Source: Eledone cirrhosa (Eukaryota). From it: a stretch of 19,036 nt of DNA. The DNA lies in contig CAXHJY010000233.1 of the NCBI GenBank assembly GCA_964016885.1, positions 1 to 19,036 on the forward strand. Direction: 5' to 3'. The notes under the pieces were generated by a model. The model ran no database searches and was not told the origin of the DNA. It saw only the letters and a list, made by a program, of their open reading frames with translations. The position numbers and the translations under genes are program-made. Positions 1,526-11,498 of this stretch are shown piece by piece; positions within the stretch are counted from its first letter, which is position 1, and each line of letters begins with the position of its first letter.

Positions 1526-2988
1526 GTTTAGCGAGGTTTTTTATATGAAATCGTGTGTCGAAACAAATATTGTTATACTTGGGGAGGGTCATTTTTGTGT
1601 AATATTGCCAGAATTAATAACAGAACACACTCACTGTTTGGTTGGTTTTCGCTTCTGTGTCCTTTATATCGGTTAATTTAATTTTTTCGGTCCTCAATGT
1701 TACCATTGACTGACCAACGGTCAAAAATACAGATACAATATAGACACAACCACATATATATAGTCTAACAAAGTTCTTTCGTTCCACATCTACAACATCG
1801 TCAGTGGTGCTATTATGTTTCCTCCCGTTGCATTGTATCCCTACGCCATCTTTATTTAGTCTGTTTATTTATTTATTTATTTGTTTATTTTTTTGTCTTC
1901 TCTGCGCATGCATTTGCGTGTGTGTATTGTGTTTTGTTTGGTGTGTGTTCGTGTTTGGGTGACTGTGTATTGGTTATTGTATTCTATCTTAGTTTACTAG
2001 TGTGTGTTTATATGTGTTTGTTGTTATTGTGCTTGTGTATGTATTTATTTATTTAGACTTCTCTTAGGTCAGTGTTGTTTGTTTGGGTGTTGTTATTCCA
2101 TTCATTTTTTTCTGTTTAGCCTTGGCTTTCTAAGTTCTATTTCGCTGGCCTCTCTGTTTTGCCTATCTGCTGTGTTATTTCTATGTTTAGATATTATTCT
2201 AATTTCTATGTTGTCTATGTTACCGTCGTGTTGTTGTCTGGCATGTTCGTATAGTACTGAACCGTTTTTTCGTCCTTTTAGTTCCCCCCAGTGTTGGTCT
2301 ATCCTTTCACCTATGCTACGAGCTGTCTCGCCTAGGTATGTTGTTGTCATGTTTCTGCAAGTACCCTCTGTACATCTTATGCTATAGACTACGTTTCTAG
2401 TTTTACAGTTTATCTGGGGGTTTACTTTACATATGATACATTTCCTATTAGTACAGTGGGTTTTCTTAAAAGGGTAGGTTTTGCTGATCAGGGATTTTAT
2501 GGTGGTTCCTGGCTTTTCTACCACATTAATCTTTAAGTGGGTCTTTCTCGGGGCCTTTCTACACTGGTTAGCAAATTTCCCTCCAGGGGTAGCGTCCACA
2601 AATATGACACTCTGGTATCTCTGGTTGTCGTACCATGAGGTGGCTTTCCCTATCTTATGTCTAGCCCTATCTAAGCTATTCCATGATTTGCTCCTGTATA
2701 ATGAGCAAATTCCTTTCATGTCCAGTTCTATGAGGGTCTTATACTTCTCCGTGGCTCCTTCGTATACTCTAATTCTGTCTCTTTGGTTGTAGCCAGAGAA
2801 CTGCATTCGGTTGATGAAGTGTTGGATGTGTCTTTCCATTTCTGTTGGGTCGCACATGCGGGACTCGTTCTTCATCACTCGTACCAAGTCTGCGATCAGA
2901 ATATTAAACTTAGCACTACTGGACATTGCTGAGTTTTTTAGTATCAGGTATTTGGAGGCCATGGGTTTAGCATAGTGTGAGTGGAGAA
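1526..2988 (-). mobile_element. 5'-truncated Penelope-like element (second family)
   Basis: Starts directly at the (TA)n tract at 2988-3022. Has a thumb + GIY-YIG frame, a CA-rich 3' UTR and a sense HHR at 1767-1808. The 3' end is either at the short TA run near 1753-1762 or at the (TA)n ending at 1525. Confidence 0.88.
1767..1808 (-). ncRNA. Minimal type I hammerhead ribozyme motif in a PLE 3' UTR
   Basis: ACCA-CTGACGA-T-GTT(gtagatgtgg)AAC-GAAA-G(AA)CT-T-TGTT. Intact core boxes, 3-bp stem II, 3/4-bp stem I. Confidence 0.7.
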
Positions 2989-2989
2989 T
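2102..2989 (-). CDS. PLE RT thumb/linker + GIY-YIG endonuclease, N-terminally truncated (tentatively Nematis/Neptune-like)
   Basis: The open frame extends upstream of the listed ORF as ILHSHYAKPMAS. Motifs: SGY, SVIFVDATPG, HCTNRKCIIC..C linker, NVVYSIRCTEGTC..YLGETARSIGERIDQH, LYEH, RQNREASEI..PRLN. The clade assignment is from recall only. Confidence 0.9.
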   Translation of the reverse strand: MLHSHYAKPMASKYLILKNSAMSSSAKFNILIADLVRVMKNESRMCDPTEMERHIQHFINRMQFSGYNQRDRIRVYEGATEKYKTLIELDMKGICSLYRSKSWNSLDRARHKIGKATSWYDNQRYQSVIFVDATPGGKFANQCRKAPRKTHLKINVVEKPGTTIKSLISKTYPFKKTHCTNRKCIICKVNPQINCKTRNVVYSIRCTEGTCRNMTTTYLGETARSIGERIDQHWGELKGRKNGSVLYEHARQQHDGNIDNIEIRIISKHRNNTADRQNREASEIELRKPRLNRKK

Positions 2990-3022
2990 ATATATATATA
3001 TATATATATATATATATATATA

Positions 3023-3295
3023 TTAGGATTTAGCTTCGAGCATAGCTGTATACAGATATGTATTGGAATTTTGTATTTCTAAAGAAATACGATATGTTTA
3101 TAAATAAACATTTAGAAAGCCGTGACTATGCAAAAACACCGCAGGCTATTGCCACCTGGCGGTGTCCGATCAGAAACAAGGGGGACAATCGTCGATGTAT
3201 TTCGAACTGAACTGCTTCTCATCAGGACGATCTCACCGGTTCATGCAACTGCTGGACTTGAAAACAGGCGAGAATCAATAGTTTTCTCATCTGAG
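3023..3295 (-). mobile_element. Short non-coding HHR-bearing unit between (TA)n tracts (PLE 3' end or retrozyme-like)
   Basis: About 270 nt, flanked by (TA)n on both sides, contains HHR 3188-3231, no recognisable coding sequence. Confidence 0.65.
3188..3231 (-). ncRNA. Minimal type I hammerhead ribozyme motif
   Basis: ATCGTC-CTGATGA-GAA(gcagttcag)TTC-GAAA-T(AC)AT-C-GACGAT. Perfect 6-bp stem I, intact core, AUC cleavage triplet. Confidence 0.88.
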
Positions 3296-3342
3296 TATAT
3301 ATATATATATATATATATACTCAGATGAGAAAACTATTGATT
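3273..3342. repeat. Perfect palindrome: 23-bp unique arms around (TA)12
   Basis: AATCAATAGTTTTCTCATCTGAG-(TA)12-CTCAGATGAGAAAACTATTGATT. Confidence 0.97.
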
Positions 3343-3679
3343 ATTTCTGAAGACGGCGTATGTATGAGTTAGGTATGTATATTTAATCTTGATAATTTGT
3401 ATAATTTTGTATAATTTTGTACATAGATCTGTTAAATATGCATACCAATTATAACACATATATACCCTAGAAACGATCGTTAAATAGTGAACTTTTTTTG
3501 TTTAATATAAGGAATTGTTTGTTCATTATTTGTTTAACATTTTATCTTGACTCTGTATACCATTTATCTTTCACCGAAATTGGATTTTCATTACATCTCT
3601 TCTTTCCATGATATCCGGAATACATTGAGTTCTTCATACGGATTGGACACTACCGTAAACTCTTGGTAGATTTATCTAC
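3320..3679 (+). mobile_element. Short non-coding HHR-bearing unit between (TA)n tracts (PLE 3' end or retrozyme-like)
   Basis: About 360 nt, flanked by (TA)n, contains HHR 3342-3486 followed by a T-rich tail. Confidence 0.65.
3342..3486 (+). ncRNA. Type I hammerhead ribozyme motif with a 116-nt extended stem II
   Basis: TATTT-CTGAAGA (3347-3353)..GAAA (3470-3473)-C(GATC)GT-T-AAATA. The intervening arms pair as 3358-3371 with 3452-3465 and 3372-3386 with 3432-3446. Confidence 0.8.
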
Positions 3680-3807
3680 ATATATATATATATATATATA
3701 TATATATATATATATATATATATATATATATATATATATATATATATATATATATATATATATATATATGCATCTCTCCCTCTCTCTCTCTATATATATA
3801 TATATAT
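3679..3807. repeat. Compound (TA)n-(TC)n-(TA)n microsatellite
   Basis: Directly visible. Confidence 0.97.
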
Positions 3808-9611: not shown

Positions 9612-9733
9612 TCACACACACACACACACATACCCACACACACACACACACCCCTCACCCCCCCCCCCCACACACACACATATATATATATATAAATTAC
9701 ACAACAATCAAAGCTATGTTCAAATCATGTTAT

Positions 9734-9779
9734 TGCTGACAATCGTTTCTTCCAAACTATCGTTTGAATCATCGGAGCA
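9734..9779 (-). ncRNA. Type I hammerhead ribozyme motif (U4C variant) near a PLE 3' end
   Basis: TGCT-CCGATGA-TTCAAAC(GATA)GTTTGGAA-GAAA-C(GATT)GT-C-AGCA. 4-bp stem I, 7-bp bulged stem II, GUC triplet. Confidence 0.82.
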
Positions 9780-10499
9780 TTAGCAATATTTGTACATATA
9801 ATTAACCTCCTATTCAACTGAACAATCGTATAGATACATGGATATTAATGTTGCCAACAACAGTTTCGAATTTACAGAGTGGAATGGATGCGACATAGAT
9901 TTCAAGAGAATTGTACAATAATTAAAATAAAAAATTAAAAGTTAAAAAGGTACAGAGTGGAATGCATGCAACAGAGATTAGTATAACAATTAGAGAGGCA
10001 TTAAGGTAGAAAGTTACTCGTGAAACGAGGATTCTAGTAGTACATAAGCAAGCGTATAGAGAGTGCGAATGCAATAGGCTCAAACAGGAAGGAAACAAGC
10101 AATGGTACTAGACATATATAATTTCTGCGATGCAAAGGTATCACATAAAACAACATATGTTTACAAGCAGGCGAAGCTCTTTTAGTATTAAAATTATTAG
10201 TTTATGGTGGCTGTAGCGTGATAATTGTTTCTGTAATGTTCAGATGTGTATGTGCTGAGAGTATCTATTTTATTGCTATCTTTTCCATAACATTGGCTAT
10301 GTTTTATTTTAGTGAATGTTTTTAATCAGTCACAGCCATGGATTGTATACCGGTTCTAATATATTGTTATCCGCGGTTCGAGTTGTTGTAGAGAGGTTCT
10401 CTAACGGTTTAATTTCCGGAACTGAGTTTGATCTATATTAAGGGGAACTAATACGAAAGGGGAGGTAACTAGCGATTACATTGTAAATTAATTTAGAAA

Positions 10500-10895
10500 A
10501 ATGTAAATATGTTTACAGCTATATATTATTTAAATTTTTTGTGTTACTATACATTATATTGTGTTATAAGTGAATCCCTTTTATATAATGCTATTTGTTT
10601 GTGTTTAATTTTAAATATAATCTATTTTACATTAAAGGTCTGATTATATTGTTATCTATCCATTACTGAATAACGTATATGTAATTGTTAGGAAATTGGT
10701 AAGAATGTATAGTTGTTTACAGGTCTAACTAGTTAAATCTCTTGTGCTATTAATATACATTATATTATGTTATAAGTGAATTTCATATATATAATGCTAT
10801 TAAATTTTTATGTTTAATTATAAATATAATTTATTTTCCTATACTAGATTAAGTGTCTCATCATATTATTATTTATCCATTCCTGAATATAATAT
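10500..10895. repeat. Diverged tandem duplication, period about 206 nt, within the putative PLE 3' UTR
   Basis: ATACATTATATT.TGTTATAAGTGAAT..TATATAATGCTATT..TGTTTAATT.TAAATATAAT..TATCCATT.CTGAATA occurs near 10549 and near 10755. Confidence 0.8.
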
Positions 10896-11105
10896 AAGCA
10901 AGATATAGTGATTATATTAAATGGTGTTAGTTTTATGTTTATTCCTAATAGTTATTGTATAGTATAAAGTTTGAGATAAAAAGGAGTTAGGTAGAGGGAT
11001 GAGCTGATCATAGAGTGTGATGCTGTGGGGGTACTTATATGCTGATAAGACCTAGAGGTGAAGTGTTAATGATGGTGAGGAATTCAGATCTGACATTGTT
11101 ATACA

Positions 11106-11498
11106 TCAGGAGCTAGGTTTAAAGCTATAAAAAGAGTGTCGGTTGTAGTGCTGGCAGATCGAAAAAACCTCTGATATTCTATTTAGGAGGTCTAGCTTAG
11201 AATAGATTATTGTTCGGGTCTCTAGAAGACAGAGGTTACATAATGTATTAGGTGGTTTATACGATGCGGCCCTATCTACTATCTCCCATTGAAGTGTATA
11301 TGTTCTATTCCTAGTTTTCAGAGAGTGTATGTAGCTGGATAAAGAAGTGGAGTTGGCTAGATTGCGATTTTTGAACGTGTGGAGGTGCGAGTTATATTTC
11401 GTCTTGAAGCAGTTCGAAGTTGCACCGATATATGTTTTAGAAGAGTTATTTGTGTTGACCGTGCATGAGTAAATGATGTCTTTGATTAAGCAATTTTG
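11106..11498 (-). CDS. GIY-YIG endonuclease C-terminus of a PLE (Hydra-clade-like CxLC/CxH tail); no start codon, absent from the ORF track
   Basis: Manual translation gives a stop-free 130 aa: QNCLIKDIIYSCTVNTNNSSKTYIGATSNCFKTKYNSHLHTFKNRNLANSTSLSSYIHSLKTRNRTYTLQWEIVDRAASYKPPNTLCNLCLLETRTIIYSKLDLLNRISEVFSICQHYNRHSFYSFKPSS*. Confidence 0.88.
   Translation of the reverse strand, partial: QNCLIKDIIYSCTVNTNNSSKTYIGATSNCFKTKYNSHLHTFKNRNLANSTSLSSYIHSLKTRNRTYTLQWEIVDRAASYKPPNTLCNLCLLETRTIIYSKLDLLNRISEVFSICQHYNRHSFYSFKPSS

What the first reader, a model, noticed from the sequence alone, without database searches (positions are those of the whole stretch)
1526..11498. Microsatellite-hosted cluster of unrelated PLEs and HHR units: eight hammerhead motifs in about 8 kb
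Seen: three PLEs with different endonuclease signatures plus several 200-360-nt non-coding units, each delimited by (TA)n/(CA)n/(GA)n and almost all carrying a type I HHR (1767, 3188, 3342, 4016, 7326, 9255, 9304, 9734). Apart from the 9255/9304 pair, the motifs share only the catalytic boxes and have different stems. Established: PLE pseudo-LTRs carry minimal type I HHRs and some PLEs prefer microsatellites. Inference: one microsatellite-rich site has been hit repeatedly by many independent PLE or retrozyme-like families, giving a beads-on-a-string ribozyme array.
Basis: partly seen in the sequence, partly recalled or inferred. Interest (0 to 1): 0.75.

Follow-up and report, generated by a model that had tools for sequence, protein, structure and literature searches.

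The report
Pile-up of ribozyme-carrying jumping genes
This stretch is a pile of eight unrelated, high-copy Penelope-type jumping elements, most carrying a predicted self-cutting hammerhead RNA and likely inserted one after another into TA repeats; it is a dense but ordinary patch of an animal genome that holds roughly 300,000 such motifs.

Summary
The motifs are real. All eight are hammerhead-shaped and belong to seven separate multi-copy families. Five have intact cores, one has a private G12 mutation, and two have family-wide core changes (U4C; a two-base broken box). There are four protein-coding Penelope-like families, not three (two Hydra-clade). The 3342 motif is a type I hammerhead with a 116-nt stem II in a 99%-identical Hydra family. 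Copies end in microsatellites in 161 of 194 cases (22% at random positions). A paralogous locus shares three units, lacks four and has a different hammerhead element at the same TA tract, which fits serial insertion. The locus is not special: 79 sampled 10-kb stretches average 1.56 motifs (3 in total after shuffling), and 9 of 79 match the window's 5. A whole-genome pattern count gives about 282,000 perfect cores above control, more than any published count I found (axolotl 126,247). Cleavage and expression are untested. This scan already noted the same microsatellite-hosted community on other DNA of this genome.

The parts
1526..2987 (-). U1: 5'-truncated C-terminal-endonuclease PLE (CX4CxxC linker, CCHH GIY-YIG; Neptune/Nematis type by motif), 3' end in (TA)n
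   Evidence: ORF 2102-3022; 40 of 40 scored candidates match at 94-98%; ends
1766..1810 (-). Type I hammerhead H1, C3 at 1804; core intact, stem I weak (3 of 4 pairs), stem II 6 bp in the family but damaged here
   Evidence: core intact in 22 of 27 family copies
3024..3295 (-). U2: non-coding ~340-nt-monomer family (partial tandems and inverted pairs), retrozyme-like
   Evidence: 86-89% to other copies, 91% to the paralog
3187..3232 (-). Type I hammerhead H2, C3 at 3225; intact core, 7-bp stem I
   Evidence: intact in 24 of 37 copies
3320..3341 (+). Inverted copy of the neighbouring 3274-3295 across (TA)12, forming the 5' junction of U3
   Evidence: sequence; family lacks it
3337..3679 (+). 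U3: 3' pLTR of a young 6.2-kb Hydra-clade PLE, truncated at the 5' edge of its ribozyme
   Evidence: 98-99% copies; full ORF of 830 aa in L249
3341..3487 (+). Type I hammerhead H3 with 116-nt hairpin stem II: C3 3347, GAAA 3470-3473, predicted cut after 3481
   Evidence: fold z -6.0; scan; 97% of cells paired in 11 copies, covariation not significant; core intact in 29 of 30
3808..7133 (-). U4: near full-length PLE monomer, RT plus C-terminal GIY-YIG, ORF broken by frameshifts; Neptune/Nematis type by motif (DKG, CCHH)
   Evidence: Pfam RVT_1 2.5e-9, GIY-YIG 1.3e-4; 97-98% copies
4016..4051 (-). Hammerhead-shaped relic H4: stems and GAAA present, first box CAGUUGA
   Evidence: 27 of 28 copies
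7178..7445 (+). U5: short non-coding family (about 290-400 nt, two 5' variants), 3' end in dinucleotide repeats
7326..7362 (+). Minimal type I hammerhead H5, C3 at 7330, no loop 3 (dimer type)
   Evidence: intact in 22 of 24; 17,096 genome matches to this spacing vs 105 control
7930..8553 (-). Old RTE-like LINE fragment, no hammerhead; left boundary approximate
   Evidence: tblastn E 1.8e-6 over 8126-8508
9159..9374 (.). U7: head-to-head pair of a ~140-nt element; outer ends about 62 nt apart, central junction differs from copy to copy
9255..9292 (-). Hammerhead H6, C3 at 9288; intact core, U-U at the base of a 2-bp stem II, stem I damaged here
9304..9341 (+). Hammerhead H7, C3 at 9308; inverted twin of H6, G12>C in this copy
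   Evidence: family core intact in 41 of 47
9409..9612 (.). U8: head-to-head pair of a ~145-nt element of the same build as U7, without a CUGANGA box
9695..11496 (-). U9: 5'-truncated Hydra-type PLE with long AT-rich 3' UTR
   Evidence: ORF 11106-11552; 44.5% to the U3-family endonuclease; 94-96% copies
9734..9779 (-). Type I hammerhead H8, C3 at 9775, U4C variant
16889..16953 (+).
   Evidence: 21 homologous hits in 790 kb

Best explanation
The interval is a stack of eight unrelated multi-copy Penelope-like elements and short dependent elements, seven with a predicted type I hammerhead, that likely inserted one after another into (TA)n tracts. Shown: family membership, copy ends, different ages, and a paralogous locus with a different subset. 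Inferred mechanism: a PLE GIY-YIG endonuclease nicks (TA)n and its RT copies RNA from the pLTR 3' end. 5' truncation then preferentially leaves the pLTR, which is where the hammerhead sits, and copying onto both DNA ends gives the head-to-head pairs. Each insertion leaves TA on both sides, so targets persist and elements stack. The ribozymes are passengers of their own families, not a joint array.
For: Every unit searched filled all 40 scored candidates. 3' ends abut a dinucleotide repeat in 161 of 194 copies vs 894 of 4000 random positions. Closest non-paralog identities run from 89% (U2) to 99% (U3). Paralog C1656:89.2-91.3 kb shares U2, U7 and part of U8, lacks U1, U3, U4 and U5, and has another hammerhead element in the TA tract where U1 sits. 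Inverted element copies lie at 49 of 94 5' junctions. Hammerhead counts track microsatellite counts (Spearman 0.50, p 3.5e-6), and motifs lie a median 156 nt from a tract vs 254 nt for random points in the same stretches. Literature: pLTR hammerheads (PMC4209133), (TA)n targeting and inverted copies with tails (PMC8557442), cutting and extension of both strands in vitro (PMC11167929).
Against: The window is in the upper tail: 5 distinct families per 10 kb is reached by only 3 of 79 stretches, though it was picked for that density. Clumping of unrelated motifs around family copies is modest, 2.26 (1.65-2.89) vs 1.56 (1.14-2.00) per 10 kb. The paralog also lacks the old RTE fragment, so part of the difference may be deletion, not insertion. 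U4 and U9 ends meet a repeat in only 13 of 24 and 15 of 24 loci; many of the others run into a tandem copy or tail. No autonomous partner was found for U2, U5, U7 or U8 within the fetched flanks. Targeting was not separated from tract growth after insertion.
Confidence: 0.85

Rival explanations
1. The cluster is a selected ribozyme array that cuts a read-through RNA into defined pieces.
For: Five unrelated intact-core motifs in 10 kb, top 4% by family count; 79% of the interval is such units.
Against: Mixed orientation; private damage in H1, H5, H6, H7; H6 and H7 pair with each other in one -122 kcal/mol hairpin; the paralog lacks half the units; 9 of 79 sampled stretches are as dense.
Confidence: 0.04
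2. Elements insert without TA preference; the TA tracts are made or lengthened by the elements' own ends, and the stack reflects tolerance in gene-poor DNA.
For: Repeat type at the 3' end varies (TA, CA, TC); 35 of 79 stretches have no motif and counts are overdispersed.
Against: 3' ends are sharp and run into long, different tracts; many 5' junctions also abut TA; the paralog has a long TA tract with a different element at the same site; TA preference is published for Hydra, including Hydra-1_Obim.
Confidence: 0.1
3. The motifs are chance matches in AT-rich DNA.
For: Rfam finds none; one scan hit (4551) looks like chance; H4 needs two core mismatches.
Against: 123 vs 3 in shuffles; 17,096 vs 105 and 360,370 vs 78,616 genome-wide; cores conserved within families.
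Confidence: 0.01

Closest known systems
Minimal type I hammerheads of metazoan PLE pseudo-LTRs (Cervera and de la Pena 2014, PMC4209133; parts 1-2 of 4 read)
   Same: Type I order, extra base after A9, tiny palindromic helix III, mostly single motifs from truncated PLEs, opposite-strand pairs 100-700 bp apart, many families per genome, U3-A8 variant (seen in the sampled stretches and the paralog).
   Different: Counts there are 2,000-9,000 per genome against about 282,000 or more here. Helix II is 7-8 bp there; H3 has a 116-nt stem II. Family-wide U4C and CAGUUGA boxes are not in the parts read.
Hydra-clade PLEs (Craig et al. 2021, PMC8557442; section 11, passages, supplement searches)
   Same: U3 family: RWR, DKT, CxCX5C linker, no CCHH, CxxC and CxH, (TA)n insertion, hammerhead present. 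U9 endonuclease is of the same build. Hydra-1_Obim is listed with (TA)n preference.
   Different: Published Hydra are generally <3 kb; the U3 unit is 6.2 kb. A long stem II is not mentioned in what I read; their File S2 hammerhead structures were not inspected.
Metazoan non-LTR retrozymes (PMC7229834, passages and section 15; bioRxiv 10.64898/2026.07.22.740005, part 1 of 5 and passages)
   Same: U2 is a ~340-nt non-coding monomer with a type I hammerhead in partial tandems; a U-U base of stem II as in H6/H7 occurs in active axolotl HHR_Amex2.
   Different: U5, U7, U8 are dispersed monomers or head-to-head pairs, not tandem arrays; circular RNA untested.
Poseidon PAc of Anolis (Frangieh et al. 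2024, PMC11167929; passages)
   Same: AT-rich cutting on both strands and two RT start sites that make the 'tail', matching the two fixed 3' ends of U1, U3, U7, U8.
   Different: Offsets here are 41-134 nt rather than 30-40. There the hammerhead was dispensable for insertion in vitro, which fits U4's broken core but was not tested here.

Membership tests
Type I hammerhead ribozyme | CUGANGA, GAAA and UH in type I order | tested here: met
   H1, H2, H3, H5, H6 intact; H8 U4C; H7 G12C private
Type I hammerhead ribozyme | Core intact in H4 (4016) | tested here: not met
   CAGUUGA in 27 of 28 copies; filed as a relic
Type I hammerhead ribozyme | Stems I-III can form | tested here: met
   weak stem I in H1, weak stem II in H6/H7
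Type I hammerhead ribozyme | Covariation support (H3) | tested here: inconclusive
   1 two-sided and 7 one-sided pair-keeping changes; 43 of 500 shuffles reach the score
Type I hammerhead ribozyme | Self-cleavage at the predicted site | not testable with these tools
   needs a transcription assay
Type-SGC (permuted) hammerhead | GAAA block upstream of CUGANGA, for 3342 | tested here: not met
   no matching upstream block in 25 loci; a downstream GAAA completes a type I fold
EN+ Penelope-like elements | RT plus C-terminal GIY-YIG | tested here: met
   U4; U3 family full ORF; U1 and U9 by endonuclease motifs and blastp
EN+ Penelope-like elements | pLTR partial tandems, inverted 5' copies, optional tail | tested here: met
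Hydra clade (U3, U9) | DKT, RWK-like, CxCX5C, no CCHH, CxxC/CxH | tested here: met
   U3 family all motifs (RWR for RWK); U9 family linker and endonuclease only
Hydra clade (U3, U9) | Phylogenetic placement by RT | not tested
   no reference set built
Neptune or Nematis (U1, U4) | CX2-5CxxC linker plus CCHH | tested here: inconclusive
   U1 has both; U4 has CCHH and DKG but a variant linker; no tree, so the clade is not assigned
Non-LTR retrozyme (U2) | 150-400-nt non-coding tandem monomer with a type I hammerhead | tested here: met
   342-nt spacing and partial tandems
Non-LTR retrozyme (U2) | Circular RNA in vivo | not testable with these tools
   no RNA run available
Non-LTR retrozyme (U5, U7, U8) | Head-to-tail tandem units, each with a hammerhead | tested here: not met
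   monomers or head-to-head pairs; U8 has no core

The most novel reading that the evidence does not exclude
This genome carries the heaviest ribozyme load yet counted (0.3-0.45 million type I hammerheads, one per 7-10 kb, at least 42 families, including long-stem-II and core-variant forms), built by a feedback in which PLE insertions preserve and multiply their own (TA)n targets, and enough motifs are active to cut host pre-mRNAs on a genomic scale.
Probability: 0.25. Interest if true: 0.75.

Novelty: new member of a known kind. Interest (0 to 1): 0.4.

Why it matters
The locus itself is ordinary for this genome. What matters is the load it samples: about 282,000 perfect cores above control and at least 42 families, against 126,247 in two families in the axolotl and 235 found by Rfam in giant squid. 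The role of the hammerhead in PLE transposition is open. Here young families that spread with an intact long-stem ribozyme (U3), a U4C variant (U9) and a broken core (U4) sit side by side, which gives a natural series for testing whether cleavage is needed.

Tried and rejected
Rfam scan: no hammerhead hit, only hairpin noise. Strict descriptor found 2 of the 8 motifs at <=1 core mismatch; I first judged 3342 false, then reversed on the family fold. Permuted (SGC) reading of 3342 rejected; U8 was inspected by eye only and gave no complete core. Fold-back of host flank as a general 5'-junction rule: 11 of 94 junctions flagged, all 9-12 nt and mostly low-complexity, so not supported. Search for a PLE ORF linked to U2, U5, U7, U8: only unrelated neighbours. 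The U9 count of 0 of 32 was my spacer error, corrected. Sequence beyond the window does not exist, since the window is the whole contig. Part's output was cut: 16 of 25 U8 rows and 20 of 25 U9 rows were seen. Earlier-finding searches by words and by the U3 sequence returned nothing. PMC6155905 passages gave no usable counts.
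Full report
Setting. The window is the whole of contig C260 of a 3.0-Gb animal assembly. I did not determine the organism; I searched cephalopod literature on a lead from an earlier scan note and from recall. Microsatellites divide 1526-11498 into units, eight of which cover 79% of the interval and share no similarity at E<1e-3.

Observation. Rfam finds no hammerhead. A strict descriptor finds 2 motifs at <=1 core mismatch, against a mean of 0.125 in 40 shuffles. The remaining two are visible by alignment: 9308 has a private G12>C and 4048 has the box CAGUUGA in 27 of 28 family copies. 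The 3342 motif first looked false because no GAAA follows closely. Its GAAA is at 3470, and the 116 nt between fold into one hairpin (z -6.0), with a palindromic stem III and 6-bp stem I. In 11 copies 97% of cells pair, but covariation is not above shuffles. Cores are intact in 22 of 27 (U1), 24 of 37 (U2), 29 of 30 (U3), 22 of 24 (U5) and 41 of 47 (U7) copies. U9 has CCGAUGA in 26 of 32. PMC3088659 (passages) reports that U4C lowers activity in vitro yet supports a viroid in vivo, and that U-U at the base of stem II occurs naturally.

What the units are. U4 encodes RT and GIY-YIG. U1 is a truncated PLE with a CX4CxxC linker and CCHH. U3 is the 3' end of a 6.2-kb element whose ORF has the Hydra motifs, and U9's endonuclease is 44.5% identical to it. 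So there are four coding families. U2 is a ~340-nt monomer in partial tandems. U5 is a short family with two 5' variants. U7 is a head-to-head pair in all 25 loci aligned, with a junction that differs between copies; the query selected for that shape. U8, searched with one arm only, showed the same build in 12 of 14 visible non-self rows, plus one partial, but has no CUGANGA. Each search filled its 40 scored candidates out of 914-3,367; hits in 790 kb of sampled DNA (2 to 24 per family) imply thousands to tens of thousands of copies each.

Microsatellite link and order of events. A dinucleotide repeat starts within about 25 nt of the 3' end in 161 of 194 copies, against 894 of 4000 random positions. 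Inverted element copies sit at 49 of 94 5' junctions, and second 3' ends lie 41-134 nt inside the first, the PLE structure described in PMC8557442 and explained in vitro in PMC11167929. Closest identities outside the paralog are 99% (U3), 98% (U4, U1), 95-96% (U9, U7, U8, U5) and 89% (U2), so the insertions differ in age. Contig C1656 holds a paralog, 91-97% identical, with the left flank, U2, U7 and part of U8, including U7's private junction. It lacks U1, U3, U4 and U5 and has another hammerhead element in the TA tract where U1 sits. It also lacks the RTE-like fragment, so deletion may explain part of the difference; U3 and U4 are nonetheless younger than the duplication.

Is the site special? 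I took 79 evenly spaced 10-kb stretches from the large contigs (80 requested; no small contigs sampled). At score >=9 they hold 123 motifs, against 3 after shuffling: mean 1.56 per 10 kb (bootstrap 1.14-2.00), 42 families. The window has 5; 9 of 79 stretches have as many, 3 of 79 when distinct families are counted, and 35 have none. The window has 34 microsatellite tracts (median 14; 16 of 79 have as many). Motif count follows tract count (Spearman 0.50), and 89% of motifs lie within 300 nt of a tract against 54% of random points in the same stretches. Unrelated motifs around family copies run at 2.26 per 10 kb (96 loci, two overlapping ones dropped). The window is a dense but expected patch.

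Genome load. The sample extrapolates to about 455,000 motifs (330,000-590,000). An exact whole-genome pattern with both boxes perfect and a 10-33-nt spacer gives 360,370 matches against 78,616 for the reversed control, an excess of about 282,000; stems were not required in that count. Published counts I saw: 2,000-9,000 minimal motifs per genome (PMC4209133), over 6,000 in a coral and about 5,000 in a mussel, 126,247 in axolotl, 235 by Rfam in giant squid. A 2026 Octopus vulgaris repeat annotation has no occurrence of 'ribozyme' in its main text. Searches for hammerhead with octopus, with cephalopod, and Penelope with cephalopod and microsatellite found no such count; the library lacks most subscription papers, descriptors differ between studies, and supplements of the 2026 preprint were not seen.

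Mechanism. Inferred from the above and the cited papers: PLE endonucleases nick (TA)n, RT starts at the pLTR 3' end, truncation leaves mostly pLTRs with their hammerheads, and short non-coding families likely borrow the enzyme. TA remains on both sides, so new targets persist. Activity of any motif is untested. U4 spread recently with a broken core, which agrees with the in vitro finding that cleavage is not needed for insertion.

Verdict. Observation confirmed; the repeated-insertion reading is supported; the special-array reading is not. New members of known kinds. Earlier notes of this scan described the same community on other DNA. Interest 0.4, carried by the genome-wide load and the variant ribozymes rather than by this locus.

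Noticed in passing
window 3274-3341 and 7134-7189: The 5' junctions of the two youngest insertions (U3, U4) each carry a 12-22-nt inverted copy of the neighbouring older element across the (TA)n, joined by a 2-3-nt microhomology. The paralog has a ~60-nt or longer inverted flank copy too. Not a general rule in family loci.
   Followed up: partly
U3, U7 and U8 families: 5' ends pile up at the ribozyme's 5' edge: 7 of 14 incidental U3 copies and 3 of 6 U7 copies start within 20 nt upstream of C3; 33 of 52 U8 copies start within 20 nt upstream of GAAAC. Possibly a transcription start there.
   Followed up: partly
sampled loci L084-L292: 26 of 123 sampled motifs have a stem II of 36-116 nt, in about a dozen families; U3-A8 and U4C core variants form their own families.
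   Followed up: partly
window 16889-16953: Ninth hammerhead (G8>A) of the commonest sampled type.
   Followed up: partly
window 17077-17175: Two copies of a 50-nt unit, one containing CUGAGGA at 17137; no GAAA partner found by the scan.
   Followed up: no
window 388-1098, 13570-13800, 14327-14490: Several copies of a very common SINE-like repeat, in both orientations, hit by most fetched loci.
   Followed up: no
L115:456-3366: Tandem array of seven identical hammerheads at about 482-nt spacing, a classic retrozyme-like array.
   Followed up: no
L250: Large head-to-head palindrome of two truncated U3-family copies.
   Followed up: no
window 14068-14122: Short near-perfect palindrome, also hit in L003.
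   Followed up: no
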